From contig JAHXGL010000001.1 in the NCBI GenBank assembly GCA_019923655.1, positions 3,653-67,652 of the forward strand: DNA of 64,000 nucleotides. Direction: 5' to 3'. Both the position numbers and the translations under genes were made by a program. Position 1 is the stretch's first letter, and each line of letters starts with the position of its first letter. A model generated the notes under the pieces. The model had not been told where the DNA came from. It ran no database searches and saw only the letters and a program-made list of their open reading frames with translations. Below, in pieces: positions 1,981 through 51,005 of this stretch. This stretch comes from Candidatus Nealsonbacteria bacterium (lineage in GTDB: Bacteria > Patescibacteriota > Minisyncoccia > Minisyncoccales > RBG-13-42-11).

Positions 1981-2004
1981 TTTTTTCATCTTTGTCTTGC
2001 TTTA

Positions 2005-2080
2005 CTGTCGGGGTTTGACCCCGACAGTGCTGTCGGGGTTTGACCCCGACAGCACCCCGACAGCATACCGACAGCATAAT
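2005..2080. repeat. Two tandem 23-nt palindromes CTGTCGGGGTTTGACCCCGACAG followed by decayed half-copies (CCGACAGCA x2)
   Basis: Read directly at 2005-2027 and 2030-2052; lies downstream of secG. Confidence 0.85.
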
Positions 2081-3765: not shown

Positions 3766-3792
3766 GATTGACAAGGTTTTTGTAAATGATAA

Positions 3793-3827
3793 GGTAGAAG
3801 GTAGAAGGTAGAAGGTAGAAGGTAGAG
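3793..3827. repeat. Heptamer microsatellite (GGTAGAA)x4 plus GGTAGAG
   Basis: Five exact-period 7-nt units read directly, 29 nt upstream of the GH130 gene ATG. Confidence 0.9.
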
Positions 3828-3855: not shown

Positions 3856-5853
3856 ATGCAGTTGGAGCGTTATAAAAACAATCCTATTTTAGAGCCGAGA
3901 AAAGAGCATGCCTGGGAAACAGGAGGTGTTTTTAATCCAAGCGTAATTTACGAACAAGGAAAAGTCTATATTGTTTATCGGGCTTTTTCTAAAGATCATA
4001 CTTCTAGTTTAGGTTTGGCAATTAGCAAGGACGGATTTAACATTGACGAGAGATTGCCAGAACCGATTTATAAGCCGCGAGAAAGTTTTGAAAAAAAAGC
4101 TAAACCAGGGGTTTGGTCGGGATGCGAAGACCCGAGAATTACTAAAATAGGCGACCGGTTTTATATGTGTTATACCGCGTTTGATGGAGTTCATCCAACC
4201 AGAGTCGCTCTAACATCAATAAAAGTAAAAGATTTTCTCGCTTTTCGCTGGAAATGGGAAAAACCGGTTTTAATTTCACCGCCAGGCATAGATGATAAAA
4301 ACGCTTGTATTCTGCCTCAAAAAATTAAAGGGAAATATTTTATTTTTCATCGATTTCATCCCTGTATTTGGATTGATTCAGTTAAAGATTTAAATTTCAA
4401 AAAAGACACTTGGATTAAAGGAAGTTGTTGGTTTATGCCGAGAACGGATAAATGGGATAGCCGAAAAATCGGCATTGGTCCGGTGCCGATAAAAACAAAA
4501 CAGGGCTGGCTTTTGATTTATCACGGCCTTTCTGAACAAGATAGAAAATACCGATTAGGCGCAATGCTATTAGATCTTAAAGACCCTTCCAGGGTTCTTT
4601 GCCGGCCAAATAATTTTATTTTGGAACCGCAGCAGGACTACGAAAAACAAGGAGTAGTTCCTAATGTTGTTTTTACTAATGGAGCAATAATAATTAAAGA
4701 CCAATTGTTTATTTATTACGGCGCCGCGGACAATGTTATCGGACTTGCCACAGTGAATCTAAATGAATTTTTGAAAGAATTAACGGAAAAAGCTGATTAT
4801 AAAATTGAACTTATAAGGCACAAACGAAACCCTATCTTAAAACCAAATATAAAAAATTGGTGGGAAGCTGATGCTGTTTTTAATCCTTGCGTTATCAAAG
4901 ATGAAAAAAACATTTTTCATATGGTTTATCGGGCTCATTCTTCTCAATTTTTTGATGAACATAAACCAGGATTTCATATTTCTTTTTTAGGATATGCCAA
5001 TAGTAAAAATGGAAGTACTTTTAAAAATCGTCGTCTATTTTTTAAGCCAGAGCATAAATGGGAATATTTTGGCTGTGAAGACCCAAGAATAACTAAATTT
5101 GGAAATCAGTACTTTATTTTTTATACCGCTGTTTCTCATTTTCCTTCTTCGCAAGAATATGTTAAAATAGCCTTAGCAACAACTAAGGACTTTAAAACAA
5201 TTACCAAGCATGGCATTGTAACGCCATTTAACGCAAAGTGCATGGTTCTTTTTCCGGAAAGAATCAACGGAAAAATGGTAGCAATTTTTGCTTTAGAGCC
5301 GGACTTGCGGCCATTAAAGACGGGTATTGCTTTTTTTAACGATATTCAAGAAATTTTATCTCAAGAATATTGGGATAAGTGGTGGATTGAAAAGGACCAA
5401 CAAGGTAAAAATATTTTATTTCCCCCAACGCCAGATTTAGAAATTGAAGTGGGCGCCCCTCCTATAAAAACAAAACAGGGCTGGTTGCTGATATTGGCTT
5501 ATATCACAGGAATTAGTCTTCCTGGTCCAGATGTTTTTGGCATCGGCGCCGCGCTTTTAGACCTAAAAGATCCAACTAAGATATTAGCTAAAAGCGATTA
5601 TCCTTTTTTAATTCCTAAAACGCAATACGAGATAAGATATATGCGGCCGAATGCTATTATCTTTCCTTCTGGCGCGGTTGTGAAGAACAAAGAATTATTA
5701 GTCTATTATGGGGCAGGCGACAAAATTTGCTGTTTAGCATTTTATAATTTAGAAAGATTAATAAAAATTTTATTAAAAAGCTCATCTCGCGCTTACTCTT
5801 CAAAATTCGCAGTCTTCCAAACCACGAAGGGGTTTGGAAACGAAGAATTTTGA
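3856..5853 (+). CDS. Tandem-domain glycoside hydrolase family 130-like protein (two GH130/DUF377 modules)
   Basis: NPILEPR..WE..GVFNPSVIYEQGKVYIVYRA and GCEDPRITKIGDRFYMCYTAFDG in the N-half; a second GCEDPRITKFGNQYFIFYTA module in the C-half. The last ~24 codons are encoded by a palindromic repeat. Confidence 0.8.
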   Translation: MQLERYKNNPILEPRKEHAWETGGVFNPSVIYEQGKVYIVYRAFSKDHTSSLGLAISKDGFNIDERLPEPIYKPRESFEKKAKPGVWSGCEDPRITKIGDRFYMCYTAFDGVHPTRVALTSIKVKDFLAFRWKWEKPVLISPPGIDDKNACILPQKIKGKYFIFHRFHPCIWIDSVKDLNFKKDTWIKGSCWFMPRTDKWDSRKIGIGPVPIKTKQGWLLIYHGLSEQDRKYRLGAMLLDLKDPSRVLCRPNNFILEPQQDYEKQGVVPNVVFTNGAIIIKDQLFIYYGAADNVIGLATVNLNEFLKELTEKADYKIELIRHKRNPILKPNIKNWWEADAVFNPCVIKDEKNIFHMVYRAHSSQFFDEHKPGFHISFLGYANSKNGSTFKNRRLFFKPEHKWEYFGCEDPRITKFGNQYFIFYTAVSHFPSSQEYVKIALATTKDFKTITKHGIVTPFNAKCMVLFPERINGKMVAIFALEPDLRPLKTGIAFFNDIQEILSQEYWDKWWIEKDQQGKNILFPPTPDLEIEVGAPPIKTKQGWLLILAYITGISLPGPDVFGIGAALLDLKDPTKILAKSDYPFLIPKTQYEIRYMRPNAIIFPSGAVVKNKELLVYYGAGDKICCLAFYNLERLIKILLKSSSRAYSSKFAVFQTTKGFGNEEF

Positions 5854-7762: not shown

Positions 7763-7785
7763 CTGTCGGGGTCAAACCCCGACAG
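7763..7785. repeat. Palindrome CTGTCGGGGTCAAACCCCGACAG, the reverse-complement orientation of the 2005-2052 units
   Basis: Read directly, 4 nt after tRNA-Leu. Confidence 0.85.
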
Positions 7786-9552: not shown

Positions 9553-10530
9553 ATGAAAGTATTTAGCGGTATTCAGCCAACAGGCGCGCTTCATATAGGA
9601 AACTATTTAGGAGCGATAAAACAATGGGTTGAACTTCAAGAAAAAAACGAGTGTGTTTTTTGTATTGTTGATTTGCACGCCTTAACTTCTCCTTATCAAC
9701 CCGAAACTCTGCAAAATTTGATATTGGAAAAAGCGATTGTCTATTTAGCCGCTGGAGTTAATCCTGAAAAAGCGACAATTTTCGTTCAATCAGAAGTTAA
9801 AGAACACTCTGAATTAGCTTGGCTTTTAAATACGATAACGCCAATCGGCGACTTAAACAGAATGACTCAATACAAAGAAAAATCCAAAAAATTCAAACAA
9901 AATGTTAATGCCGGACTCTTAAATTATCCAATTTTAATGGCTGCTGATATTCTTTTGTATCAAACAGATATTGTCCCTGTGGGCCAAGACCAAAAACAGC
10001 ATATTGAAATAACCAGAACCATTGCCAGAAAATTTAATCAAAAATTTGGCCAAACTTTTAAGGTTCCGGAAGCAAAACTGCCTAACGCAGGGGCTAAAAT
10101 AATGAGCTTGACCCAACCAACAAAGAAAATGTCAAAAACCGATCCGCCCGAAAGTCGCATCGGTCTTTTTGACGAGCCGGAAGAAATAAAAGCCAAAATC
10201 ATGAAAGCGGTTACCGACACTGGAAAAACGATAAAATATAACGAAAAATTAAAACCCGGGGTTTCAAACCTTTTAACGATTTATTCTTTATTCTCGGGAA
10301 AAACGGTCAAGGAATTAGAAAAGAAATTTAAAGGGAAAGGATACGCGGAGCTCAAAAAATCCTTATCAGAGCTTTTGATTAACTCTCTGGAGTCTTTCCG
10401 CCGGAAAAAGAAAGAACTCCTCTGTAGAGAAGTCTATGTTAAAGAAATTTTAGAGCAAGGCAGAAAAAGAGCCCAAATTATCGCCTCTTCTACTATCGCA
10501 GATGTCAGAAAAAAGATGGGATTAACTTAA
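9553..10530 (+). CDS. trpS: Tryptophan--tRNA ligase
   Basis: MKVFSGIQPTGALHIGNYLGA (HIGH-type) and KMSKT. The ORF track start at 9523 precedes a small GGGGTCTGACCCC hairpin, so the ATG at 9553 is preferred. Confidence 0.9.
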   Translation: MKVFSGIQPTGALHIGNYLGAIKQWVELQEKNECVFCIVDLHALTSPYQPETLQNLILEKAIVYLAAGVNPEKATIFVQSEVKEHSELAWLLNTITPIGDLNRMTQYKEKSKKFKQNVNAGLLNYPILMAADILLYQTDIVPVGQDQKQHIEITRTIARKFNQKFGQTFKVPEAKLPNAGAKIMSLTQPTKKMSKTDPPESRIGLFDEPEEIKAKIMKAVTDTGKTIKYNEKLKPGVSNLLTIYSLFSGKTVKELEKKFKGKGYAELKKSLSELLINSLESFRRKKKELLCREVYVKEILEQGRKRAQIIASSTIADVRKKMGLT

Positions 10531-10545
10531 TATCCTGGATCTATT

Positions 10546-11886
10546 ATGATTTCATTATTTGGGACAAGCGGAATAAGGGGCTCGGCTAAAGAATTTTTAA
10601 CTAATCAATTCTGTTTTGATATTGGCCGGGCTTTCGGCATATTCTTAAAAAACCATAAACAAAAAGGCAAAATAGCCGTAGGAATGGATCCTAGAAGATC
10701 CAGTCCAAGAATAAAGAGATCTTTTTCTTCAGGGCTCTTAAAAGAAGGCTACAAGGTTTCCGACCAAGGAATTGTTCCCGCTCCAGCTATGAATTATATT
10801 TTAATAGCTGATCCGGCTTTTGTTGGCAGTTGTATGATTACCGGAAGCCATATTAGATTAGATTTTAACGGGTTGAAATTTTTTGCCTTCAAAGAAGAAA
10901 TTTTAAAAAAACAGGAAAGAGAAATTGAAAATATTTACAAAAAAATCAAAGAGAGAATTCCGTTCAAACGAAAAAAAATAGAGTTCAAAAAAGAAAATAT
11001 TGCCATTAAATCTTACCGAGAAATGCTCTTAAACATAGCCAAACCGCCCTACCCTAAATGGAAGATAGTTATTGACGCTAGTAATGGCTGTCAGGTAAAA
11101 GCAATACCGACAATTCTTAAAAAATTAGGATTAAAAGTAAAAATTATAAATGGCAACCTGCAATCGGAAAAATTTATTCCCAGAGACACTGAAACCGAAG
11201 AAGCGGTAAAGGAGCTTCAAGAAAAAGTAAAAAAGGAGAAGGCGAATTTTGGAATAGCTTTTGATGGAGATGGAGACAGGGTAGTTTTTGTTGATAAAAA
11301 AGGAAGGTTTATTCCCGGAGATTATACTGGAACCCTAATCGCTAAATACAGCCCCACAGCAACCGTAGTTATCCCGACTAATGTTTCTCAAGTAGTAGAA
11401 ACCATAGGGAAGAAGATTGTTCGAACAAAAGTTGGCTCTCCTTATGTGGTTGAGGCAATGAAAAAATATAAAGCTTTTTTTGGCTTTGAAGCAAACGGTG
11501 GAGGAATTTCGGCTGAAATTATGATGAGTCGAGACGCTGGTTCTGTAACAATAAAAATTTTAAACTTATTAACCCAAAGCAAAAAAACTTTAGAAGAACT
11601 AATAAATACCCTTTCTAAATTTTTTCTTTATAGGGTCAAAATCAACTGTCCTCAAGAACTAAATCCAATTATTCTTAAAAAAGCAAAGAAGAAATTTAAA
11701 GGAATTAAAACCGAGGAAATCGACGGATTAAAAATCTGGCTTGATAAGTACGCTTGGATTCTTTTTCGGCCATCGGCTAACGCTCCGGAATTTCGGGTGT
11801 TTGCCGAAGCAAAAACCAAGGAAGAAGCTGAAAAATTAGGACAAAAAGGAATTAATTTTGTTAAATCATTGGTGAAACCTTGTTAG
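10546..11886 (+). CDS. Phosphohexomutase family protein (GlmM/ManB-like)
   Basis: GIRG N-terminus, TGSH active-site loop, FDGDGDR metal site, GFEANGG sugar loop. Confidence 0.8.
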   Translation: MISLFGTSGIRGSAKEFLTNQFCFDIGRAFGIFLKNHKQKGKIAVGMDPRRSSPRIKRSFSSGLLKEGYKVSDQGIVPAPAMNYILIADPAFVGSCMITGSHIRLDFNGLKFFAFKEEILKKQEREIENIYKKIKERIPFKRKKIEFKKENIAIKSYREMLLNIAKPPYPKWKIVIDASNGCQVKAIPTILKKLGLKVKIINGNLQSEKFIPRDTETEEAVKELQEKVKKEKANFGIAFDGDGDRVVFVDKKGRFIPGDYTGTLIAKYSPTATVVIPTNVSQVVETIGKKIVRTKVGSPYVVEAMKKYKAFFGFEANGGGISAEIMMSRDAGSVTIKILNLLTQSKKTLEELINTLSKFFLYRVKINCPQELNPIILKKAKKKFKGIKTEEIDGLKIWLDKYAWILFRPSANAPEFRVFAEAKTKEEAEKLGQKGINFVKSLVKPC

Positions 11887-12168: not shown

Positions 12169-13059
12169 ATGTCTTTTTCAGTGGGTATAATTGGCTTGCC
12201 AAATGTTGGCAAATCAACTCTATTTAAGGCTTTGACTAAAAATCCTGTGGGTATTGCTGACTACCCTTTTACCACTATTCATCCCAATGTCGGGCTAGTG
12301 GCGGTTCCTGATAAAAGATTAGAAAAAATTGCTCAAGTTATTAAACCGGAAAAAATAACCCCGACTGTAATTGAGTTTGTTGATATTGCAGGCCTGGTCA
12401 AAGACGCTCATAAAGGCGAGGGTTTGGGAAATCAGTTCTTGGCCCAAATCAGAAATTGCGACGCTCTGGTTGAAGTTGTCAAAGCATTTGATAATGCGAG
12501 CAATGCAAGTATTGAAAAAGATATTGAAATAATTAAAACCGAACTGGAAAAGAAAGATTTAGAATCAAAAGAAAAAGAAAATCTTTTAAGCAAAAAGCCG
12601 ATTCTCTATGTCTTTAACATTAATGAACAAAGAACAAAGAACAATGAACAAGAATTAAAACAGATGTTTTCTTTTCCCTGTTCCTTGTTTATTGATCTTA
12701 AGCTTGAAGTAGAAATATCAGAGATGTCAGAGTCCGAAATAAAAGAATTGGGCATCGCTTCCAAGCTTGACCAAATGATTTTAAGTTGCTATGATATTCT
12801 TAGTTTGATTACTTTTTACACGATAACTCGCGGGAAAGAAACCAGGGCATGGACGTTAAAAAAAGGGTTAAGAGTGCCGGTAGCTGGTGGAATTGTCCAT
12901 TCTGATTTTGAAACCAAATTTATTAGGGCCGAAGTAATCAGCGCGCAGAAATTAATCGCAGCCGGTTCCTGGAAACAAGCGCGGGAATTAGGGCAAATCT
13001 TAACAACTGGAAAAGAGTATGTTGTAGAAGACGGCGATGTTGTAGAATTTAAAATATGA
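12169..13059 (+). CDS. ychF: Ribosome-binding ATPase YchF (Obg-like GTPase family), short form
   Basis: GIIGLPNVGKSTLFKALT P-loop; C-terminal TGS-like HSDFETKFIRAEV...VEDGDVVEFK. Confidence 0.88.
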   Translation: MSFSVGIIGLPNVGKSTLFKALTKNPVGIADYPFTTIHPNVGLVAVPDKRLEKIAQVIKPEKITPTVIEFVDIAGLVKDAHKGEGLGNQFLAQIRNCDALVEVVKAFDNASNASIEKDIEIIKTELEKKDLESKEKENLLSKKPILYVFNINEQRTKNNEQELKQMFSFPCSLFIDLKLEVEISEMSESEIKELGIASKLDQMILSCYDILSLITFYTITRGKETRAWTLKKGLRVPVAGGIVHSDFETKFIRAEVISAQKLIAAGSWKQARELGQILTTGKEYVVEDGDVVEFKI

Positions 13060-17478: not shown

Positions 17479-20400
17479 TTAGGAGTTAAGCGGGGTAAAG
17501 CCGGTCCCTGCGGGAATAAGCTTTCCAATAATCACATTTTCTTTAAGCCCGTGGAGTTTATCTTCTTTTCCTCTCAATGAAGCGTTGATTAAAACCCGAG
17601 AAGTTTCCTGAAAAGAAGCAGCGGAAAGAAAGCTCTCAGTGGTTAAAGCGACCTTAGAGACGCCAAGCAAAAGAACAATACCCTTGGCTGGCTTTTTTTT
17701 CTCTTTTTTGAGCTGAATGTTCTCTCTTAAAAATTCCGCTTTTTCTACAATTTCCCCAAGTTTAAAAATAGAATCTTCGGAAACAACAATCTTTAAACGA
17801 GAGAACATTTGGCGGCAGATTGTTTCTATGTGTTTGTCATGAAGTGAAACCCCTTGGGAAACATAAATTTTTTGGACTTCTTTGACAATATATTTTTGAG
17901 TTTGTTCAAGCCCAACCAACTTAAATAATTCTTTTAAGTCTAAATTACCCTCGCAGAGTTGCTGGCCTATTTCTATTTCTTGGTTAGGTTCTACTAAAAT
18001 TGCTATATTTTCCGGAATTTTATATTCTAAGATTGAAGACAAACTTTTAGTAGTCCTCCAATTCTTTTTTGTTTCTGACAGCAATTTTTTGCGTTTTTGT
18101 TTTATCTTTATTACCCTTTCAGGAGTTATTTCTATTATTTTTCCTCGGACTTGGGAAATCTTAGCTTTTCCTTTCGGTATTCTAGCTTCAAAAATCTCTT
18201 GAACTCGAGGCAGGCCAAGGGTAATATCACTTTCTCCGGCAACGCCCCCGGAATGGAAAGTTCTCATTGTTAGTTGGGTTCCTGGTTCGCCAATTGACTG
18301 AGCAGCCACAATTCCGGCTGCCTGTCCTATTTCTATTATTTTGTTTTTTCCCATATCCCAACCATAACATTTTTGACAAAGGCCTTTTACTACTTCACAA
18401 GTAAGCGGACTGGCGATTTTTATCTCTTTGATATTAAGACTGACTATTTTATCAGCTTTTTCCCAATCAATAATTTCTCCTTTTTTGCAAACCCCTTTTA
18501 TGTTTTCAAGGCTTATTCTTCCTGAAATTTTATGAATAAAATTCTGGCCAATTTCATCGGCATCTTTTCTTTGGACGATAATTCCTTGTTTGTTTCCGCA
18601 ATCTTTGGTAGTAATGATTATTTCATGGGCAACATCTATCAGTCTTCGGGTGAGATATCCAGCCGCTGCAGTTCGAAGCGCCGTGTCAGCCAGTCCTTTT
18701 CTTGTTCCATGAGTGGAAATAAAATATTCTAAAACATCAAAACCCTGCTTAAAAGAGTTTTTTATGGGCATTTCAATGATTTGACCGGTCGGATTAATAA
18801 CCAAACCTTTCATACCTGCCATTTGAACCGACGGACCCCAGGATCCTTTTGCTCCTGATTCAATGATTTGATAAATTGGCCCATTTTTTGGCAAGGTTTT
18901 CGGGATCAATTCTTCAATTTTGGACTTTGCTTTATTCCAAATTTTAATTACTTTAATAGTTTTTTCTTCTCTTGAGAGAAATCCTTTTTTTAAGTGTCCT
19001 TCAATTTCTTCTACTTCCTTTTCTGCTTCTTTTATAATTTTGGTTTTTTCTAAGGGAATAATTAAATCATCCATTCCCCAGGATATTCCGGACAGGCTGG
19101 CGTATTCAAATCCTAATAGTTTTATTTTATTTAAGAGATCTTGCGTTTTTTCTAAAGGGTATTTTTCAATAGTTTCCCTGCTTATTCTTTCTAAGTCTTT
19201 TATTTTTATTTCTGAATTCTGGAATGGGTAGTTTGAAGGCAGGGCTTGGTTGAAAATAATCCGACCAACCGAAGTTTCAATTAAATCCGTGCGTTTTAGC
19301 GGTTTAACATTTTGTCGGGACAGCCGCGTTTTAATTTTGGTTTTTAAGTCAATTTCGCCAAACTCATAAGCTAACATCGCTTCTTCGGGACTGGTAAAAA
19401 ATTTCTCTGGTTTTAGTGCTTCATCTTCAATTTTAGTTAAATAATAACAACCAAGAGCAATGTCTTGATGGAAAGTAATAACCGGAATACCTGTTGCCGG
19501 TTTTAGAAAATTAGCCGTGGAAAGCATAATTTCTCTAGCTTCTTTTTGGGCAATGGTTGAAAGGGGCAGGTGAACCGCCATTTGATCTCCGTCAAAATCA
19601 GCATTAAAAGCCTTACAGACCATGGGATGAATTTTAATGGCTTCTCCTTCAATTAAAACCGGATAGAAAGCTTGAATACCCAGCCGATGGAGGGTTGGCG
19701 CCCGATTTAATAAAACAACTTTATCTTTTGTTATTTCTTCTAAAATTGCCCAGACCTCATCTATGCCTTCTTCAATTAATTTTGAGGCGCTTCGAACATT
19801 ATAAGCTAGTTCTTTTTCCAAAATCTTTTTAATTATAAATGGCTTAAAAAGTTCCAGAGCCATTTTTTTAGGGAGACCGACTTGGTTAAGTTTTAATTCC
19901 GGACCAACGACAATTACCGACCGACCGGAATAATCAACTCGTTTGCCTAAAAGGTTCTGCCTGAATCGCCCCTGTTTCCCTTTAAGGATGTCAGCTAAAG
20001 ATTTTAGCATTCGCTTTCCGCCGGTCGTGGCAGTGGTCATTGTTCCTTTTCGGGCTTCGTTGTCAATGAGAGCGTCTACTGCTTCCTGGAGCATTCTTTT
20101 TTCATTCCTTAGAATAACTTCAGGCGCTTCTATTTCTAAAAGATATTTTAATCGATTGTTTCGATTAATTACTCGGCGATAAAGGTCGTTTAAATCCGAA
20201 GAAGCATACCGGCCGCCGTCCAGTTGCACCATTGGTCTTAAATCCGGAGGCGATACTGGTAAAAGTGTTAAAAATACCCATTCTGGTCTAATCTCAGCTT
20301 TTAACATTCCCTGGAAAAGTTTTATCCTTTCTAATATTTTTCTTTTAGCCAGGACTTGCCCCGTTAGATAATTTTTATCTAACGGGGCTTGCTCTGTTAG

Positions 20401-21228
20401 ATAATTTTTATCTAACAGGGATTGCCCCGTATAATCTTCGCGGGAGCTACGCGGGGATTGGGTTTTTTCTTTGTCATTTTTTAGTTTAGCTATTTCTTTT
20501 TCCAGGTCAATTTTGGTGCAAAGTTTTCTTAATGTTTCAGCTCCGGTTCCCACTTCAAAAACAGCCCCGTATTTCAGGGAAAGATCATGATATTCATTTT
20601 CAGAAAGAATTTTTAAAGGTTTTAGACTTAAAACTTCTTCTCGGGCTCTATTTTTAGCCTTTTTTAGCTTCTCTGACTCGGTTTTTGCTTTTGCTTTTTT
20701 ATTTTTGAGATTCTTTTGTTTTGACTCGTCTTGGTCTAAGGAACGCAGCGCCTTGTTTTTTCTTTTGTATTCTTTTTCAATCTCTTCCAGGATTTTTTTC
20801 TTAATGTCTAAGTTGACATCAGTAATAACATAGGCGGAGAAATAAATTATTTTTTCAAGCTGAGACACAGGAATATCCAGGATTGCGCCTATTGTTGAGG
20901 GAACGCCTCTTAAAAACCAAATATGGGAGCAGGCCATAGCTAGTTTAATGTGGCCCATTCTTTCGCGCCGCGAAAGAGCTTTTGTTACTTCTACGCCGCA
21001 CCGGTCACAAATTACTCCTTTGTAACGAATTCTTTTATATTTGCCGCAGTAGCACTCGTAATCTTTTGTTGGTCCGAAAATTTTCTCGCAAAACAGCCCA
21101 TCTTTTTCCGGCCTTTGTGTTCTATAATTAATAGTTTCAGGTTTTAAGACCTCTCCGTGAGACCATCTTGATATATCTTCCGGCGAAGCCAGTTTTATTC
21201 TTATTGATTTAATATCAGCAACTCGCAT
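17479..21228 (-). CDS. rpoC: DNA-directed RNA polymerase subunit beta-prime, with a K/E-rich lineage-specific insertion
   Basis: CxCGKY...CDRCGVEV zinc motif, NADFDGDQM catalytic loop, 1249 aa. Confidence 0.98.
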   Translation of the reverse strand: MRVADIKSIRIKLASPEDISRWSHGEVLKPETINYRTQRPEKDGLFCEKIFGPTKDYECYCGKYKRIRYKGVICDRCGVEVTKALSRRERMGHIKLAMACSHIWFLRGVPSTIGAILDIPVSQLEKIIYFSAYVITDVNLDIKKKILEEIEKEYKRKNKALRSLDQDESKQKNLKNKKAKAKTESEKLKKAKNRAREEVLSLKPLKILSENEYHDLSLKYGAVFEVGTGAETLRKLCTKIDLEKEIAKLKNDKEKTQSPRSSREDYTGQSLLDKNYLTEQAPLDKNYLTGQVLAKRKILERIKLFQGMLKAEIRPEWVFLTLLPVSPPDLRPMVQLDGGRYASSDLNDLYRRVINRNNRLKYLLEIEAPEVILRNEKRMLQEAVDALIDNEARKGTMTTATTGGKRMLKSLADILKGKQGRFRQNLLGKRVDYSGRSVIVVGPELKLNQVGLPKKMALELFKPFIIKKILEKELAYNVRSASKLIEEGIDEVWAILEEITKDKVVLLNRAPTLHRLGIQAFYPVLIEGEAIKIHPMVCKAFNADFDGDQMAVHLPLSTIAQKEAREIMLSTANFLKPATGIPVITFHQDIALGCYYLTKIEDEALKPEKFFTSPEEAMLAYEFGEIDLKTKIKTRLSRQNVKPLKRTDLIETSVGRIIFNQALPSNYPFQNSEIKIKDLERISRETIEKYPLEKTQDLLNKIKLLGFEYASLSGISWGMDDLIIPLEKTKIIKEAEKEVEEIEGHLKKGFLSREEKTIKVIKIWNKAKSKIEELIPKTLPKNGPIYQIIESGAKGSWGPSVQMAGMKGLVINPTGQIIEMPIKNSFKQGFDVLEYFISTHGTRKGLADTALRTAAAGYLTRRLIDVAHEIIITTKDCGNKQGIIVQRKDADEIGQNFIHKISGRISLENIKGVCKKGEIIDWEKADKIVSLNIKEIKIASPLTCEVVKGLCQKCYGWDMGKNKIIEIGQAAGIVAAQSIGEPGTQLTMRTFHSGGVAGESDITLGLPRVQEIFEARIPKGKAKISQVRGKIIEITPERVIKIKQKRKKLLSETKKNWRTTKSLSSILEYKIPENIAILVEPNQEIEIGQQLCEGNLDLKELFKLVGLEQTQKYIVKEVQKIYVSQGVSLHDKHIETICRQMFSRLKIVVSEDSIFKLGEIVEKAEFLRENIQLKKEKKKPAKGIVLLLGVSKVALTTESFLSAASFQETSRVLINASLRGKEDKLHGLKENVIIGKLIPAGTGFTPLNS
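20355..20420. repeat. Two tandem 33-nt palindromic units inside rpoC (stem CCCCGTTAGATAA/TTATCTAACGGGG)
   Basis: Read directly; translated in frame as LDKNYLTEQAP/LDKNYLTGQVL. Confidence 0.9.
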
Positions 21229-21249: not shown

Positions 21250-21335
21250 ATAGAAAGTAGAGGGTAGAAAGTAGAAGGTAGAGGGTAAAAAACTTTTATC
21301 TACATTCTACATTCTACATTCTACATTCTATATTC
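21250..21335. repeat. Inverted heptamer arrays: (GTAGARR)x5, an A-rich spacer, then (CTACATT)x4. The core at 21275-21330 is 54/56 identical to 50949-51004.
   Basis: Read directly in the rpoB-rpoC intergenic region. Confidence 0.9.
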
Positions 21336-34618: not shown

Positions 34619-35383
34619 ATGAATATTATTTGGCACGGACAATCTTGTTTTCAAATTACTATCCAGAAAGGGAAAAACAATTTGGTCAATATTGTTATTG
34701 ATCCTTTTGATGAAACAATTGGCTTGCGAGTTCCCAAGCTGGAGGCCGATATTTTATTAGTTTCTCATAGCCACGCAGACCACAACAATAGAAAAGCAGT
34801 GGTCTCCCCGGCAGGATCAGGGCAAGTTCCTTTTTTAGTTGACGGCCCGGGTGAATATGAAGTAAAAGGAGTTTTCATTCAAGGGATTGATTCATATCAT
34901 GATTCTTTACTTGGCAGAGAAAGGGGATTAAACACCATTTATATTATTGAAGCTGAAGAAATGAAGATTTGCCACCTTGGAGATTTAGGACAAAAAGAAT
35001 TGACCGATGAACAAATTGAGAAGATTAACGAGGTTGATATTTTAATGATTCCGATTGGCGGTCTCTTTACAATTTCAGCCAAAGAGGCAATGAAAATAAT
35101 CTCTCAAATTGAGCCCAGGATCGTTGTCCCGATGCATTATTGCCTTCCAAAGCTAAAAATAGAGGGATTAGAAGATTTAGATAAATTTTTTAAAGCAATC
35201 GGAATAAAAAAAATAGAACCTTTGTCAAAGCTTTCTATTAAGAAAAAAGATATTTCGTCGGAAGAAGCGAGGATAATAGTCTTCCAAATCCGAAAGGATT
35301 TGGAAACGAAGTCTTCCAAACTTCAAAGAAATTTGGAAACGAAGTCTTCCAAATCCGAAAAAATTTGGAAACGAAGTTTTTAG
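34619..35383 (+). CDS. MBL-fold metal-dependent hydrolase (UPF0173-like) with a repeat-encoded C-terminal tail
   Basis: VSHSHADHNN metal motif. The last ~31 codons (IRKDLETKSSKLQRNLETKSSKSEKIWKRSF) come from palindromic units. Confidence 0.75.
   Translation: MNIIWHGQSCFQITIQKGKNNLVNIVIDPFDETIGLRVPKLEADILLVSHSHADHNNRKAVVSPAGSGQVPFLVDGPGEYEVKGVFIQGIDSYHDSLLGRERGLNTIYIIEAEEMKICHLGDLGQKELTDEQIEKINEVDILMIPIGGLFTISAKEAMKIISQIEPRIVVPMHYCLPKLKIEGLEDLDKFFKAIGIKKIEPLSKLSIKKKDISSEEARIIVFQIRKDLETKSSKLQRNLETKSSKSEKIWKRSF
35280..35376. repeat. Three tandem 32-33-nt palindromic units (TCTTCCAAAyC-loop-rATTTGGAAACGAAG)
   Basis: Units at 35280-35311, 35312-35344 and 35345-35376, read directly. Confidence 0.9.
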
Positions 35384-39763: not shown

Positions 39764-39867
39764 GTTTCCAAATCCTTTGGCAGTCTTCCAAACCACGAAG
39801 AGGTTTGGAAACGCAGTCTTCCAAACCACGAAGGATTTGGAAACGAATTTGGAAACGAATTTGAAAG
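39764..39867. repeat. Array of TCTTCCAAACC...GGTTTGGAAACG palindromic units (2 full units plus partial ones)
   Basis: Full units at 39784-39816 and 39817-39847, read directly; the array ends 5 nt before the ATG at 39872. Confidence 0.9.
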
Positions 39868-40438: not shown

Positions 40439-40549
40439 CTGTTTAATAACCAAAAAACAGCTCTACGGAAAACGCTGAAGTTTTGCGATTTGGCTGGGAG
40501 CGCGGGTTAGGAGTGTGAGATTTAAATCTCACACTCCTTGTTGGTTTAA

Positions 40550-41262: not shown

Positions 41263-42009
41263 TTATATTTTACAAACGCTTTTTAATTTTTTTATTTTTT
41301 TGAAAGCGACTAACGCAAACGCAGCCAAACCAATTAAGACAATTATTGGAATTGAAATTAAGGCAATTACTAAAACAGGCTCGTAAACAATATCTTTCTC
41401 AATTATTATTATAGGAAAATTATAAACTCCGTGCAAGAGGGAGGCTATTCCTATTCCAAAGAGGAGAAGTTTTTTGCGTTGTTTTGTTTCAAAAAAAGAT
41501 AGAGCCATATAATAACCGATAAGCCCGGAACACAAGGCGTGTAAAAAAGTGGCGCTGATAAAGCGGAGAAAAGCCAGAAAGAAAAGTTCAGGAAAGGTAA
41601 ACAGGGGATGAGCGCCGAATAAAATCAAAATATTTTCAAGAGCGGCAAAGCCCAAACCAGCAATAATCATATAGAGCATAATATCAATTGGTTCGTCAAA
41701 TTCAGAACTGCGCAAGACCTTATATCTAACCACTAGATATTTTAGAACTTCTTCAGCTGTTGCCCAGAATAAAACATAGAGAGCTAAACCAATAATTGAA
41801 ATGCCAATCATATTTTTAATATCTTCTAAAGATTCAAGCAATATCAAAGAGATAACGACAAAGATAATTGGTAAAGTACTTGCCATGCCCCAGATAAAAA
41901 TTTTTAGAATCATTCGTTTTGACTCGGGATGAACATCTTTTCTAAGAAAAAAACAGAGCCAGATAAAACTGGGCAAAAGACCAAGGATAATGTAGAGAAA
42001 ATAGCTCAT
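41263..42009 (-). CDS. PrsW-family intramembrane protease
   Basis: Multi-TM protein with EEVLKY and HxxxN-type (LLHGVYNF) motifs. Confidence 0.65.
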   Translation of the reverse strand: MSYFLYIILGLLPSFIWLCFFLRKDVHPESKRMILKIFIWGMASTLPIIFVVISLILLESLEDIKNMIGISIIGLALYVLFWATAEEVLKYLVVRYKVLRSSEFDEPIDIMLYMIIAGLGFAALENILILFGAHPLFTFPELFFLAFLRFISATFLHALCSGLIGYYMALSFFETKQRKKLLLFGIGIASLLHGVYNFPIIIIEKDIVYEPVLVIALISIPIIVLIGLAAFALVAFKKIKKLKSVCKI

Positions 42010-43109
42010 ATTCTAAGATTCGCTTTTGCCTTAATGTTTTTCCATATCTTGATTTCTTTTTTAAGCCAAAGAAAATATCCTGTAATTCCAATCATAACCG
42101 CATTGTCAGCGCGCATATTAGGGGCTGGAATACATAGTTTAGAATTTGGAATTTCTTTTTTGATTTTTTTCTTAAATTGTTTTTGCAATTCTTTATTGGC
42201 AATTACACCGCCGCCTAAGATTATAGTTTGGACATTATAATCTTTAGCGGCTCGCAAAGTTTTATAAAGCAAAACATCAATTATTGCCTGTTGGATTTCT
42301 TGGCACATCGCTTGTATAAACTTTTCGCTTAGTGCTTTTCGTTTAGTGCTTTGCGCTTTATATAACACTGCGGTTTTCAGTCCGGAAAAACTAAAATCAT
42401 AATTCTTCTGATAAATCATCGGTCTCGGCAGTTTAATTGAAAATTGAAAATTGTGAATTGAAAATTTAGCGGCAGTAGCCGCAATAGCCGGTCCTCCGGG
42501 ATAACCAAGACCTAAAATTCGGGCTGTTTTATCAAAACATTCTCCAGCCGCGTCATCCCGCGTCTCGCCTAAAATTTTATACTTGCCAAAATCTCTCATT
42601 AAAATTAACTGAGTATGCCCGCCCGAGACAACCAAACAAATCGCCGGAAATAAGTTTTTGTAATTTGTCTGCCTCGCCTCGACAGCGAGTCGAGGCTGGG
42701 CAATTTGTGATTTGTAATTTACGCTAACAAGGTTGGCCGCGATGTGCGCTTCAATATGATTTATTGGAATTATTGGCAAATTCCAATTATGAGCCAGGCC
42801 TTTGGCAAAATTCACCCCTGTCCATAAACAGGGCTCTAATCCCGGTCCAACAGTAACAGCAATTGCGTCTATCCTTGATAAACCTTGTTTATCTCCTTGT
42901 TTTAGCGCCTTTCTTAAAACCAGGGGCAAATTGCGTTGATGTTCTCTTTTGGCAAGTAAAGGATATATGCCGCCCCATTTCTGATGAATTTCATTTTGAG
43001 AAGAAACAACATTGCTTAAGATATTCAATTTAACCTGTTTTTTTCCAACAGCTTCAATCAAGGCAACGCAAGTATCGTCGCAAGATGTCTCAATAGCAAG
43101 AATTTTCAT
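42006..43109 (-). CDS. tsaD: tRNA N6-adenosine threonylcarbamoyltransferase TsaD (Kae1/Gcp)
   Basis: ILAIETSCDDT, NHIEAHI, LVVSGGHTQL, GYPGGP. Carries an 18-codon insertion. Confidence 0.93.
   Translation of the reverse strand: MKILAIETSCDDTCVALIEAVGKKQVKLNILSNVVSSQNEIHQKWGGIYPLLAKREHQRNLPLVLRKALKQGDKQGLSRIDAIAVTVGPGLEPCLWTGVNFAKGLAHNWNLPIIPINHIEAHIAANLVSVNYKSQIAQPRLAVEARQTNYKNLFPAICLVVSGGHTQLILMRDFGKYKILGETRDDAAGECFDKTARILGLGYPGGPAIAATAAKFSIHNFQFSIKLPRPMIYQKNYDFSFSGLKTAVLYKAQSTKRKALSEKFIQAMCQEIQQAIIDVLLYKTLRAAKDYNVQTIILGGGVIANKELQKQFKKKIKKEIPNSKLCIPAPNMRADNAVMIGITGYFLWLKKEIKIWKNIKAKANLRI
42657..42720. repeat. GC-rich hairpin insertion (GCCTCGAC-AGCGA-GTCGAGGC) flanked by the 10-bp direct repeat TTTGTAATTT, copies 54 nt apart
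   Basis: Read directly inside tsaD. Confidence 0.8.
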
Positions 43110-46863: not shown

Positions 46864-48966
46864 ATGGTTTTCTCCTACGGTTGGCTTCAATCTTTTTTTC
46901 AAAAAAAACTACCCAAACCAGAAAAACTGGCAGAAGTTTTGACGATGAGTTTTGCCGAAATAGAAAAGGTAAAAAAAGAAAGAGAAGATTTTGTTTTGGA
47001 TATAGATGTCAAACCCAGCCGGGCGTCGGATTGTCTTTCCCACCTGGGCATTGTTCGCGAAATCGCTGCTATTACAAAATTACAATACAAAGAGCCTCTT
47101 TCTAAATTTAAGGCAGTTAAAGAGCTGAAATCAAAAAATTTTGTGTCTGTTGACATCCGATGTCAACAAGCTTGTCCAAGATATACAATTAAAATAATTG
47201 TTGATGTAAAAGTTTGCCCATCTCCAAAATGGCTGAAACACAGATTAAAGGTTTGCGGATTAAAACCGATAAATAACATTGTTGATATCGCAAACTATGC
47301 CATGCTTGAAACAGGTCAACCGCTTCACGCTTTTGATTTTGACAAAATTAAAGGTAGAAAAATAATTGTTAGAAAAGCGAAAAAAGGAGAAGAAATTACT
47401 ACTTTTGATGAAAAGAGTTATTGCTTGGACCAAGATATTTTAATAATTGCCGATGCCAAAAAACCAATAGCTATTGCCGGAATAAAAGGAGGGAAAGAAA
47501 CAGGCATTGATAAAAATACAAAGACCGTTGTTTTGGAGTCAGCCAATTTTAATCAAGGGATTATTCGAAAAGGTTCCAGAAAATTAAACTTAAAAACCGA
47601 TGCTGCGACAAGATTTGAACAGGGAATTGACCCTAATTTAACGGAATTTGCAATCAATAGAGCTTGCTATTTAATCCAGAAAATTTCCAAAGGCAAAATA
47701 GCTCATGGATTGGCAGATATTTATCCCAAAAAAGCCCTGCCAAAAAGAATTAGATTGGACTTGGATTATGTTGAAAGATTATTAGGAATAAAAATACCTG
47801 AAAGAGAAATCAAAAGTATTTTAGAAAAACTAAGATTCAAGCTTAAAACTCAAAACTTAAAACTATTAGATGTAGAGATTCCTACGTTCAGATTAGATAT
47901 TTCTTTACAGGAAGATTTGATTGAAGAGATCGCCAGAATATATGGTTATGAGAAAATTAAGCCGGTTTTCCCGATAGTTTCGCTTATCCCGTTCAAAAGG
48001 AATCTGGAAATTTTTTGGGAAGGCAGGGCAAAAGATATTTTAGAACAAGCAAGATTTTCTGAAGTTTATAATTATTCTTTCATTAGTAAAGGGGATGCCA
48101 AAAATTTTGGCGGTAAGATAAATAAATTAATTGAAATAGAAAATCCATCAAGCATTGAACATAGATATTTGAGACCGAGCTTAATTCCGAATTTGTTAAA
48201 AAATATTCAAAAAAATCAGAAACTCTATTTTGAAACTTTCAAAACTCATAGAGTTTTGAAGAGTGAAACTTTCAAAACTCTACGAATTTTGAAGAGTAAA
48301 GAAATTAAAATTTTTGAATTAGGAAAAATTTTTCAAGCGCCTAAATTAGAAAAAAGAACTCTTTCGGGGGTAATGACAGGAGATGCGTTTTATCAAGTAA
48401 AGGGAGTAATAGATTTGCTTTTAAGTAAATTAGGCATTAGTAATATTCAGTATTGCGAGCATAGAACCGTAGAAAGGGGGTTAAAAAGCTGTTGGTGGCA
48501 GCCACCAAAATGCGCGGAGATTAAAATTAATGGAGAGCAAATAGGGTTTTTGGGCGAGGTTTCTTTCCGAGTTTTAAGCGACCTGAAAATAGAGCTGAAA
48601 ACAATAGTTTTTGATATTGATTTTGAAAAATTAGTTAGGTTTTGCTCTGAAGAAAAGACCTATCAGCCAATTTCTCGTTATCCGTCAGCAATAAGGGACA
48701 TAGCGGTTTTGGTTCCTAAAAGAATTAAAGTGAATGAGGTTTTGAATAAGATTAATGCGGTCAAAGGACAGAGAGGCCTGATTAAGGATGTGGATTTGTT
48801 TGATGTTTATGAAGGCAGGAACATTCCCAATAACAAGAAAAATTTTGCTTTCCATATTATTTATCAAGCGGAAAATAAAACTTTATCATCAAAAGAAATA
48901 GACGACGCACATCAAAAAATTGTTAAAGCATTGGAGGAACGCAAGGGATGGGAAGTCCGAAAGTAA
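46864..48966 (+). CDS. pheT: Phenylalanine--tRNA ligase beta subunit
   Basis: 700 aa with B3/4, B5 and anticodon-binding-like regions; follows pheS. Confidence 0.92.
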   Translation: MVFSYGWLQSFFQKKLPKPEKLAEVLTMSFAEIEKVKKEREDFVLDIDVKPSRASDCLSHLGIVREIAAITKLQYKEPLSKFKAVKELKSKNFVSVDIRCQQACPRYTIKIIVDVKVCPSPKWLKHRLKVCGLKPINNIVDIANYAMLETGQPLHAFDFDKIKGRKIIVRKAKKGEEITTFDEKSYCLDQDILIIADAKKPIAIAGIKGGKETGIDKNTKTVVLESANFNQGIIRKGSRKLNLKTDAATRFEQGIDPNLTEFAINRACYLIQKISKGKIAHGLADIYPKKALPKRIRLDLDYVERLLGIKIPEREIKSILEKLRFKLKTQNLKLLDVEIPTFRLDISLQEDLIEEIARIYGYEKIKPVFPIVSLIPFKRNLEIFWEGRAKDILEQARFSEVYNYSFISKGDAKNFGGKINKLIEIENPSSIEHRYLRPSLIPNLLKNIQKNQKLYFETFKTHRVLKSETFKTLRILKSKEIKIFELGKIFQAPKLEKRTLSGVMTGDAFYQVKGVIDLLLSKLGISNIQYCEHRTVERGLKSCWWQPPKCAEIKINGEQIGFLGEVSFRVLSDLKIELKTIVFDIDFEKLVRFCSEEKTYQPISRYPSAIRDIAVLVPKRIKVNEVLNKINAVKGQRGLIKDVDLFDVYEGRNIPNNKKNFAFHIIYQAENKTLSSKEIDDAHQKIVKALEERKGWEVRK
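48232..48297. repeat. Two tandem 33-nt palindromic units inside pheT (GAAACTTTCAAAACTC-N3-GAGTTTTGAAGAGT)
   Basis: Units at 48232-48264 and 48265-48297, read directly; translated as ETFKTHRVLKS/ETFKTLRILKS. Confidence 0.9.
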
Positions 48967-50920: not shown

Positions 50921-51005
50921 ATAGAGTGTAGAATAATATAGAAAAAGGAAGGTAGAGGGCAAAAAACTTTTAACTACATTCTACATTCTACATTCTACAT
51001 TCTAA
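50921..51005. repeat. Second copy of the inverted heptamer-array element (core at 50949-51004)
   Basis: aaggtagagggcaaaaaacttttaactacattctacattctacattctacattcta read directly; ends 5 nt before the secE ATG. Confidence 0.9.

What the first reader, a model, noticed from the sequence alone, without database searches (positions are those of the whole stretch)
42657..42720. MITE-like insertion with a 10-bp direct repeat inside tsaD
The GC-rich hairpin GCCTCGAC-AGCGA-GTCGAGGC is bracketed by TTTGTAATTT...TTTGTAATTT, 54 nt (18 codons) apart. This resembles a target-site duplication. It encodes NYKSQIAQPRLAVEARQTNYKN between the conserved HIEAH and LVVSGGHT motifs, where E. coli TsaD has about 10 residues as I recall its sequence.
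Basis: partly seen in the sequence, partly recalled or inferred. Interest (0 to 1): 0.55.

Follow-up and report, generated by a model that had tools for sequence, protein, structure and literature searches.

The report
Hairpin insertion in tsaD surface loop
A 33-base GC-rich hairpin-forming sequence sits in frame in a floppy surface loop of the essential tRNA-modification gene tsaD of a Patescibacteria-type (CPR) bacterium; the "direct repeat" around it is an older 7-base microsatellite rather than a transposon footprint, and related bacteria carry other hairpins in the same loop.

Summary
TTTGTAATTT lies at 42657-66 and 42711-20. The hairpin GCCTCGAC-AGCGA-GTCGAGGC lies at 42676-96. Both are inside tsaD (42006..43109, minus strand) and encode NYKSQIAQPRLAVEARQTNYKN.

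Alignment with insert-free relatives shows the inserted DNA is exactly 33 nt (42669-42701), not 54. It is a 4+8-bp quasi-palindrome of about 73% GC in a 36% GC genome. It sits inside a heptanucleotide tract, (AAATTAC)n. Relatives without the insert already carry AAATTACAAA twice, so the repeat is not a target-site duplication.

No second copy of the hairpin was found in the 64-kb window. An exact-core scan of metagenome contigs found only the tsaD of a 99% identical relative. It therefore fails the MITE, REP and RPE membership tests.

The loop is 30 aa in ordinary bacteria, 28-70 aa among the close CPR homologs and up to 89 aa in a more distant one, and is predicted to be disordered. In other CPR tsaD genes it holds different perfect palindromes, enriched about 10-18-fold over other coding DNA. 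One belongs to a dispersed family that also sits in frame in gyrA and recO. Others are reverse-complement copies of adjacent conserved codons.

Best reading: a tolerated, translated hairpin insertion, one case of a clade-wide and apparently undescribed habit.

The parts
42006..43109 (-). tsaD (tRNA t6A37 threonylcarbamoyltransferase), 367 aa, intact
   Evidence: Pfam PF00814 E=1.2e-76. PDB TsaD hits at 1e-66. The family-invariant residues H118, H122, S162-T166 and D335-N336 are present.
42669..42701 (-). 33-nt in-frame insertion (coding strand GCCCAGCCTCGACTCGCTGTCGAGGCGAGGCAG, encoding AQPRLAVEARQ), about 73% GC
   Evidence: This is exactly the gap in insert-free relatives L082 and L083, with conserved flanks. 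It is present, with 3 extra nt and clustered changes, in the 99% relative L001.
42670..42702 (.). Quasi-palindrome TGCC-tc-GCCTCGAC-AGCGA-GTCGAGGC-tg-GGCA (4 + 8 bp stem, 5-nt loop)
   Evidence: Sequence read directly. RNA MFE -23.7 kcal/mol, z = -6.0. DNA fold -13.1 kcal/mol, z = -4.3.
42676..42696 (.).
   Evidence: Unique in the window at up to 3 mismatches. One of 8 distinct GC-rich perfect hairpins in the window.
42702..42720 (-). Upstream part (in coding sense) of the heptanucleotide tract: AAATTAC AAATCAC AAATT.
   Evidence: Homologous tract in L082 and L083. Lag-7 periodicity of CPR tsaD loops.
42654..42668 (-). Downstream part of the heptanucleotide tract: AC AAATTAC AAAAAC.
42435..42466 (-). 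Second heptanucleotide tract in the same gene: (AATTGAA)4.6 on the + strand, which is (AATTTTC)n in the coding sense. It encodes KFSIHNFQFSIK and gives a 4-aa longer loop than T. maritima TsaD.
   Evidence: TRF. PDB alignment gap.

Best explanation
The feature is a 33-nt GC-rich quasi-palindrome that was inserted, without target duplication, into a pre-existing heptanucleotide microsatellite, (AAATTAC)n. That microsatellite codes for part of the hypervariable loop between the HxxxH metal motif and the SGGHT strand of TsaD.

The insert is in frame and has no stop codon, so it is simply translated as 11 extra residues (AQPRLAVEARQ). The loop is predicted to be disordered and surface-exposed, so the insert is tolerated rather than used. 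The flanking 10-bp 'direct repeat' is a by-product: anything that lands inside a tandem 7-mer tract is automatically bracketed by repeats.

The insert is one instance of a clade-wide process in these CPR/Patescibacteria genomes. Short hairpin-forming DNA of 21-41 nt (33-nt units in this genome) accumulates in tolerant loops of essential genes.

Two sources of such hairpins are shown in relatives. One is dispersed REP-like palindrome families that also occur between genes. The other is template-switch inverted duplication of adjacent codons. For this insert, the high GC content and the fact that both arms are new favour import of a pre-formed palindrome over local template switching.

Shown: the boundaries of the insert, the absence of a TSD, the disordered loop, and the recurrence of palindromes at this site. 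Inferred: the source of the insert, its neutrality, and that it is translated.
For: Boundaries and no TSD: alignment A3 and the codon-level loops.

Hypervariable loop: 28-70 aa among the 120 closest homologs, 30 aa in almost all non-CPR bacteria, and up to 89 aa in a Moraniibacteriota tsaD.

Disorder: the AlphaFold2 model has mean pLDDT 82.9, but residues 129-149 fall below 50.

Real and inherited: the same insert is in an independent 99% identical assembly. Of the differences in the shared 264 aligned columns, most (one stem substitution plus a 3-nt indel with clustered changes just 3' of the stem) lie in or next to the insert and only 4 lie elsewhere. The C>T change in the stem keeps a G-U pair on the sense RNA.

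Recurrence at the same site: other palindromes occur in L006, L009, L012, L014, L027 and L084-L088. Perfect stems of at least 9 bp number 3 in 2,151 nt of unselected CPR loops against 0.34 expected (P = 0.005). The count is 11 against 0.59 over all 29 loops, and 0 in 3,126 nt of non-CPR loops.

Dispersed-family source: GAAGAG[GA]AC-N3/4-GT[CT]CTCTTC has 8 copies in 21 kb of L084. Four are intergenic and four are in coding sequence, including the tsaD loop, a 22-aa N-terminal insertion in GyrA, and RecO. The same block is 33-35/36 nt identical in the tsaD loops of L092 and L093, although those genes are only about 70% identical. It includes a compensatory G>A/C>T pair.

Template-switch source: in L009, L083, L087 and L027 one arm is the conserved codons and the other arm is their reverse complement. 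Across 28 homologs AN[W/L/F]L.[P/Q/K] covaries without exception: W-P 18, L-Q 7, F-K 3. These match TGG/CCA, TTG/CAA and TTT/AAA.

Same habit in this window: in-frame tandem 33-nt palindromic units lie in rpoC (20350-20430) and pheT (48231-48297), both in regions missing from homologs.
Against: No second copy of this palindrome, and no donor of either arm, was found in the window or in the exact-core metagenome scan. The 'imported element' step is therefore inferred by analogy.

Resemblance to the window's own intergenic hairpin family (CCCCGACAG..CTGTCGGGG) is not significant: p = 0.09 against palindrome-preserving shuffles.

Neutrality is assumed. The enrichment of hairpins in this loop and the compensatory changes could also reflect selection on a nucleic-acid structure.

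Seven of the 29 loops were chosen because they were long, which inflates the 18-fold figure. The unbiased figure is about 9-fold.

Translation of the insert has not been observed.
Confidence: 0.62

Rival explanations
1. True MITE-like transposon. A 44-nt element inserted at AAATTACAAA and duplicated it. The ancestral loop was ...VNYKNL..., 31 aa, close to the canonical 30.
For: Removing the 54 nt would restore a near-canonical loop length and keep the frame. Direct repeats of 8-12 nt also flank the palindromic inserts of L084, L087, L092 and L093.
Against: Insert-free relatives keep the supposed left end of the element (TCA/TTA CAA ATT) and both repeat copies. They lack only the 33-nt palindrome. 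The repeats follow from the heptamer tract, which is present in many CPR loops with no insert: L003, L020, L082, L083. There are no terminal inverted repeats at the 44-nt boundaries. No other copies were found. A 7-bp TSD plus 33 nt would break the reading frame.
Confidence: 0.06
2. De novo product of replication errors in place. The GC-rich palindrome arose locally by template switching or snap-back synthesis, possibly in two steps, with no mobile or imported sequence.
For: Template-switch signatures are clear at the neighbouring position in relatives: L009, L027, L083 and L087, plus the W-P/L-Q/F-K covariation. The 99% relative differs by a cluster of changes and a 3-nt indel beside the stem, as expected at a quasi-palindrome hotspot. 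The mechanism is documented elsewhere (PMC8794818, PMC5453318).
Against: Neither arm is a reverse complement of any sequence in the 64-kb window; no k-mer of 10 nt or more is shared. A 73% GC insert is hard to derive from 36% GC AT-rich flanks.
Confidence: 0.2
3. Functional nucleic-acid hairpin. A stable stem-loop at the boundary between the two halves of TsaD is selected, for example as a translational pause, an RNA-processing or stability element, or a DNA-level signal. The peptide is incidental.
For: Hairpins recur at this loop in many lineages with unrelated sequences. Compensatory changes keep pairing. The only stem substitution between the two near-identical genomes gives G-U on the sense RNA. 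The fold is strong, z = -6.0.
Against: Many close homologs have short loops with no strong hairpin, including L082, L004, L005 and L008. There is no Rfam match and no terminator-like tail. Compensatory change is also what template-switch correction or family-level constraint on a mobile palindrome produces. Similar palindromes sit in unrelated genes and between genes.
Confidence: 0.1
4. Programmed translational bypass, like T4 gene 60 or the mitochondrial 'byp' elements. Ribosomes take off at the first N-Y-K and land at the second, skipping the hairpin.
For: Identical codons (AAT TAC AAA) lie 54 nt apart and bracket a strong hairpin.
Against: The insert is in frame and has no stop codon, so bypass is not needed. 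The inserts in all 120 homologs examined are also open, although that set was selected for intact ORFs. The matching codons are explained by the heptamer tract.
Confidence: 0.02

Closest known systems
Rickettsia palindromic elements (RPEs)
   Same: Palindromic DNA inserted in frame into unrelated essential genes, translated, and placed where the protein fold tolerates it (review PMC10969869). The L084 family behaves this way: the same peptide NTRAxTKGEEEDLSSSPT appears in GyrA and RecO, with a related copy in TsaD.
   Different: RPEs are about 100-150 bp, fall into defined multi-copy families and occur in Rickettsia. This insert is 33 nt, is single-copy in all data available, and comes from a CPR bacterium.
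REP / REPIN elements (repetitive extragenic palindromes, mobilised by RAYT transposases; from my own knowledge)
   Same: Imperfect GC-rich palindromes of 20-40 nt. The window and L084 do contain dispersed intergenic hairpin families of this size.
   Different: REPs are by definition extragenic and multi-copy. This one is intragenic and unique. No RAYT gene was searched for.
GC clusters of yeast mitochondrial DNA (e.g. GC42) and other mitochondrial hairpin elements
   Same: Short GC-rich hairpin-forming units in a very AT-rich genome, where compensatory variation preserves the hairpin (PMC4478555).
   Different: GC42 is highly multi-copy, mostly intergenic, and has an AG target dinucleotide. 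None of these holds here.
Template-switch / quasi-palindrome mutations
   Same: They create or perfect hairpins in a single event and yield apparent compensatory changes (PMC8794818, PMC5453318, PMC7202029). This fits L009, L027, L083 and L087 and the W-P/L-Q/F-K pattern.
   Different: For the window's insert neither arm has a local template.
MITEs
   Same: A small non-autonomous insertion with internal inverted symmetry.
   Different: There is no TSD, no other copies, and the size is below the usual 50-500 bp.

Membership tests
MITE | Target-site duplication: empty sites carry a single copy of the flanking repeat | tested here: not met
   Insert-free L082 and L083 already carry AAATTACAAA twice within an (AAATTAC)n tract. 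The gap is exactly the 33-nt palindrome.
MITE | Terminal inverted repeats at the element ends | tested here: not met
With the 33-nt boundaries the whole unit is one hairpin, not a body with TIRs.
MITE | Multiple dispersed copies in the genome | tested here: not met
   One copy in the 64-kb window at up to 3 mismatches. The exact-core scan of metagenome contigs found only the 99% relative's tsaD plus two chance hits. The rest of the source genome could not be searched.
REP/REPIN | Short (20-40 nt) imperfect GC-rich palindrome | tested here: met
   33 nt, 4+8-bp stem, about 73% GC.
REP/REPIN | Extragenic, multi-copy | tested here: not met
   It lies inside tsaD and is unique. Similarity to the window's intergenic CCCCGACAG hairpin family gives p = 0.09.
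REP/REPIN | Cognate RAYT (Y1 transposase) in the genome | not tested
   The window ORFs were not screened for PF01797, and the rest of the genome is unavailable.
Rickettsia palindromic elements | In-frame insertion in a conserved gene at a structurally tolerant site | tested here: met
   33 nt = 11 codons with no stop. The loop has pLDDT below 50.
Rickettsia palindromic elements | Element of about 100-150 bp that belongs to a recognisable multi-copy family encoding a conserved peptide | tested here: not met
   33 nt and no further copies. None of the 120 homologs except the 99% relative has the peptide.
Template-switch mutation product | The new arm is the reverse complement of adjacent pre-existing sequence | tested here: not met
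   Both arms are absent from insert-free relatives, and there is no donor in the window. The feature is met for the neighbouring palindromes in L009, L027, L083 and L087.
Programmed translational bypass (gene 60 / byp) | The coding gap is untranslatable (stop codon or frameshift), with matched take-off and landing codons | tested here: not met
   The gap is in frame and open. The matched codons come from the heptamer tract.
TsaD/Kae1/Qri7 (host gene) | PF00814 domain with HxxxH and SGGHT motifs | tested here: met

The most novel reading that the evidence does not exclude
These CPR/Patescibacteria genomes harbour a so-far undescribed class of very short hairpin units (about 21-41 nt; 33-nt units in this genome). 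The units spread into tolerant loops of essential protein genes (tsaD, rpoC, pheT, gyrA, recO) as well as intergenic DNA, and compensatory change keeps them palindromic. That would imply either a new mobility mechanism for elements far smaller than MITEs or a selected nucleic-acid-level role. The tsaD insert would be one member.
Probability: 0.2. Interest if true: 0.75.

Novelty: new variant of a known kind. Interest (0 to 1): 0.5.

Why it matters
The single insert is a tolerated 11-residue loop extension and changes little about TsaD.

What matters is the pattern it points to. In a group of ultra-small, AT-rich CPR genomes, the variable loops of essential, universally conserved genes appear to be filled mainly by two kinds of DNA. 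One is heptanucleotide microsatellites. The other is short hairpin-forming units, some of which belong to dispersed families.

If this is general, it has four consequences:
- It would explain much of the odd length variation and low-complexity peptides (NFQFSI, SKFQI and similar) in CPR proteins.
- It would give a bacterial parallel to Rickettsia RPEs and mitochondrial GC clusters.
- It would provide natural data on how template switching and palindromic repeats create new protein sequence.
- It warns that flanking 'direct repeats' inside microsatellite tracts should not be read as transposon footprints.

Text searches of the held paper library found no description of this in CPR.

Tried and rejected
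1. Other copies of the hairpin. None in the window at up to 3 mismatches. The metagenome exact-core scan (GCCTCRACAGCGAGTCGAGGC) returned only the 99% relative's tsaD and two hits in one high-GC organism's coding sequence, which I judge to be chance.
2. Donor of either arm. No shared k-mer of 10 nt or more, and no 14-mer within 2 mismatches, elsewhere in the window.
3. Kinship with the window's intergenic hairpin family CTGTCGGGG-TTTGA-CCCCGACAG. A 9/10 match (CCTCGACAGC against CCCCGACAGC) looked promising. It is not significant against palindrome-preserving shuffles: 468 of 5000, p = 0.09.
4. Known RNA families. Rfam reports only tRNAs in the window.
5. Intrinsic terminator or promoter at the hairpin. 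Not called.
6. TIGR arrays, considered because of the tandem 33-nt palindromic units. The described units are typically 36 nt with box C/D motifs next to a Tas gene. By eye I saw no such motifs, and this was not tested formally.
7. A 7-bp TSD model (ACAAATT abuts both sides of the insert). Rejected because 33 + 7 nt would break the frame, and the heptamer tract explains the abutting repeats.
Most loop DNA therefore had to be fetched protein by protein.

Full report
**What is there.**
The window is about 36% GC. Its gene content and nearest homologs place it in the Patescibacteria/CPR. The ORF 42006..43109 on the minus strand is TsaD: Pfam PF00814 E=1.2e-76, and 1e-66 to solved TsaD structures. 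TTTGTAATTT is at 42657-66 and 42711-20. The hairpin GCCTCGAC-AGCGA-GTCGAGGC is at 42676-96. The minus-strand translation is NYKSQIAQPRLAVEARQTNYKN, between HIEAH and VSGGHT.

The hairpin is not a chance feature. A scan for perfect GC-rich hairpins gives 17 hits in the window (overlapping variants of 8 distinct hairpins) against 0.27 in shuffles. The sense RNA folds at -23.7 kcal/mol with z = -6.0. An independent assembly, BBPD01002913.1 with a 99% identical TsaD, carries the same insert, so it is not an assembly artefact.

**True boundaries of the insertion.**
Among the 120 closest homologs, the HIEAH..SGGHT segment ranges from 28 to 70 residues. The commonest form reads ...GNSKFQI-TNYKNLFPAICL. 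I fetched DNA for two homologs of that form, L082 (P0048) and L083 (P0010). They align base for base with the window on both sides and lack exactly 33 nt. On the coding strand these are GCCCAGCCTCGACTCGCTGTCGAGGCGAGGCAG, plus-strand 42669-42701, between CAAATT and ACAAATTAC.

The 33 nt form a quasi-palindrome: TGCC..GCCTCGAC-loop-GTCGAGGC..GGCA, that is 4 + 8 bp. It is about 73% GC and spans 11 codons.

The flanks are a tandem heptanucleotide tract. With the insert removed, the window reads AAATTAC AAATCAC AAATTAC AAATTAC AAAAAC. L083 reads AAATTAC three times. The repeat is not a target-site duplication. Any insertion into a 7-mer tract is automatically bracketed by repeats. A 7-bp TSD model is also excluded because 40 nt would break the frame.

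**Is it a repeated or mobile element?**
No other copy was found in the window at up to 3 mismatches. No k-mer of 10 nt or more from either arm occurs elsewhere in the window. An exact-core scan of the metagenome contig collection found only the near-identical relative's tsaD, plus two hits inside a coding region of a high-GC organism that I regard as chance.

The window does contain intergenic GC-rich hairpin families, for example CTGTCGGGG-TTTGA-CCCCGACAG at 2004-2055 and 7763-7785. The insert's resemblance to that family is not significant, p = 0.09. The insert therefore fails the defining tests for MITE, REP and RPE membership.

**The loop is a sink for hairpins across the clade.**
The same segment is 30 aa in almost all non-CPR bacteria sampled. 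AlphaFold2 gives a confident TsaD model with mean pLDDT 82.9, but pLDDT is below 50 for residues 129-149, which cover the insert.

Other CPR tsaD genes hold different palindromes in the DNA of this loop:
- L009: CCGCTAATTGGC-TTCC-GCCAATTAGCGG.
- L027: a perfect 15-bp stem in a loop of canonical length.
- L006, L012 and L014: further palindromes.
- L084: two adjacent GC-rich hairpins.
- L085: CCCGCCCGCAACGCT-TCGCGT-AGCGATGCGGGCGGG.
- L086: perfect 18-bp arms, plus another long palindrome.
- L087: three hairpins.
- L088: two hairpins.

Perfect stems of at least 9 bp occur 3 times in 2,151 nt of loops from the unselected GTDB set, against 0.34 expected from the rate inside other ORFs of the same loci (P = 0.005). 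Over all 29 loops the count is 11 against 0.59. This second figure is inflated because some loci were picked for long loops. Non-CPR loops have 0 in 3,126 nt.

**Two sources of such hairpins are visible.**

*(a) Dispersed families.* In L084 the palindrome GAAGAG[GA]AC-N3/4-GT[CT]CTCTTC occurs 8 times in 21 kb. Four copies are intergenic and four are in coding sequence. The coding copies include the tsaD loop, a 22-aa N-terminal insertion in GyrA that is absent from two orthologs, and RecO. GyrA and RecO share the peptide NTRAxTKGEEEDLSSSPT.

The same block sits in the tsaD loops of L092 and L093 at 33-35/36 nt identity. Those genes are only about 70% identical, and the three proteins are no closer to each other than to the insert-free P0048. 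L093 differs by a compensatory G>A/C>T pair.

*(b) Inverted duplication of adjacent codons.* In L009, L083 and L087 the conserved codons A-A-N-W/L-L form one arm, and the inserted P-P/Q-I-S-G codons are their reverse complement. L027 is similar. Across 28 homologs the residue after AN and the residue two positions after the following L covary without exception: W-P 18, L-Q 7, F-K 3. These correspond to TGG/CCA, TTG/CAA and TTT/AAA. This is the signature described for template-switch (quasi-palindrome) mutation (PMC8794818, PMC5453318, PMC7202029). Selection on a hairpin would look the same.

**The same habit in this window.**
TRF finds four arrays with a 32-33-nt period whose units are palindromes:
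- rpoC, 20350-20430, encoding LLDKNYLTEQAP-LDKNYLTGQ in a stretch that does not align to solved beta-prime structures.
- pheT, 48231-48297, ETFKTHRVLKS x2, which splits the CLM domain match.
- The C-terminal extension of a metallo-beta-lactamase-fold ORF, 35278-35377.
- 39780-39845, upstream of or at the start of a pilin gene.

TRF also finds six period-7 arrays, one of them a second tract inside tsaD at 42435-42466. CPR tsaD loops in general show lag-7 periodicity: 0.385 pooled against 0.303 in control coding DNA, and up to 0.68 in single loci.

**Mechanism: what I commit to.**
The insert is a translated, tolerated 11-residue extension of a disordered loop. It was created by a 33-nt hairpin-forming sequence landing in a heptamer microsatellite. 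The high GC content and the novelty of both arms make import of a pre-formed palindrome more likely than local template switching. That step is inferred by analogy with L084, L092 and L093, not shown.

The cluster of differences next to the stem between two 99% identical genomes shows the site is still mutationally active. These are a 3-nt indel with several substitutions, and a stem C>T that keeps G-U on the sense RNA.

The rivals are a de novo replication error, a selected RNA or DNA hairpin, a true MITE, and translational bypass. They are weighed in the structured fields.

**Comparison with known systems, and novelty.**
Functionally the closest analogues are the Rickettsia palindromic elements, which are in-frame, translated and sit at tolerant sites (PMC10969869). 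The next closest are the GC-rich hairpin clusters of AT-rich yeast mitochondrial DNA (PMC4478555). In size the insert resembles REP sequences. It is a member of none of these. It is 33 nt, intragenic, single-copy in the available data, and has no TSD.

Searches of the held literature for CPR or Patescibacteria together with palindromic, MITE or in-frame insertion terms returned nothing relevant.

I rate the single insert as ordinary in its consequences. I rate the clade-wide pattern as a new variant of a known kind that is worth a systematic survey.

Noticed in passing
window 20350-20430 (- strand, inside the rpoC-like ORF 17479..21228): Two and a half tandem 33-nt units, each a palindrome (CCCCGTTAGATAA-AAA-TTATCTAACGGGG + CAAG). 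They are in frame and encode LLDKNYLTEQAP/LDKNYLTGQ, in a stretch of beta-prime (query residues 253-294) that does not align to solved structures.
   Followed up: partly
window 48231-48297 and 47148-47168 (+ strand, pheT ORF 46864..48966): Two tandem 33-nt palindromic units encode ETFKTHRVLKS/ETFKTLRILKS and split the Pfam CLM-domain match. A separate palindrome, TGTTGACATCCGATGTCAACA, recurs almost identically in L086, in its tsaD (10213) and in leuS (13127).
   Followed up: partly
window 5806-5846, 35278-35377, 39780-39863: A dispersed family of palindromic units of about 33 nt (GTCTTCCAAAYC..GGTTTGGAAACGAA), single or in tandem arrays. The copies lie at gene ends: a C-terminal extension of about 35 aa on a metallo-beta-lactamase-fold ORF, the end of a GH130 ORF, and upstream of a pilin gene. 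No box C/D motifs were seen by eye, so it is probably not a TIGR array.
   Followed up: partly
window 2004-2076 and 7763-7785: A REP- or terminator-like GC-rich hairpin family, CTGTCGGGG-TTTGA-CCCCGACAG. It is tandem at 2004-2055, followed by (ACCCCGACAGC)x3, and one copy lies directly after a tRNA gene.
   Followed up: partly
window 3791-3826, 12625-12651, 21251-21335, 42435-42466, 50974-51004: Unusually many perfect or near-perfect heptanucleotide tandem arrays: AAGGTAG x5, GAACAAA x4, TAGAAGG x5, TCTACAT x5, AATTGAA x4.6 and CTACATT x4.4. Several lie in intergenic regions just upstream of genes, and one lies between rpoB and rpoC. A 7-nt period inside coding DNA would frameshift on single-unit slippage.
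   Followed up: no
120 TsaD homologs; DNA in L009 10347-10374, L083 9289-9411, L087 4326-4349: A hairpin made of the conserved A-N-W/L/F-L codons and a following x-P/Q/K-I/V-S/G insertion. It shows perfect residue covariation (W-P 18, L-Q 7, F-K 3) that mirrors reverse-complement codons. The window's own version is the short form GCCAAC-CTT-GTTAGC.
   Followed up: partly
L084 (JGI 3300032053 contig), positions 158, 2156, 4637, 8279, 10436, 15452, 19703, 21067: Eight copies in 21 kb of the palindrome GAAGAG[GA]AC-N3/4-GT[CT]CTCTTC. In-frame copies in GyrA and RecO give the shared peptide NTRAxTKGEEEDLSSSPT. This behaviour is RPE-like, in a CPR genome.
   Followed up: partly
L086 (GCA_030601865.1) 10001-11188: This tsaD (395 aa) carries at least four long perfect palindromes with 17-19-bp stems, in three different variable regions of the one gene. 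Its neighbouring genes carry further palindromes with 16-17-bp stems.
   Followed up: no
window 42763-42787 (tsaD, conserved NWNLPIIPIN region) and 40509-40538: A 9-bp-stem palindrome, ATTGGAATT-ATTGGCA-AATTCCAAT, lies inside a conserved part of tsaD and is also present in L001. A perfect palindrome with 13-bp arms, AGGAGTGTGAGAT-TTAA-ATCTCACACTCCT, lies just upstream of a tRNA gene.
   Followed up: no
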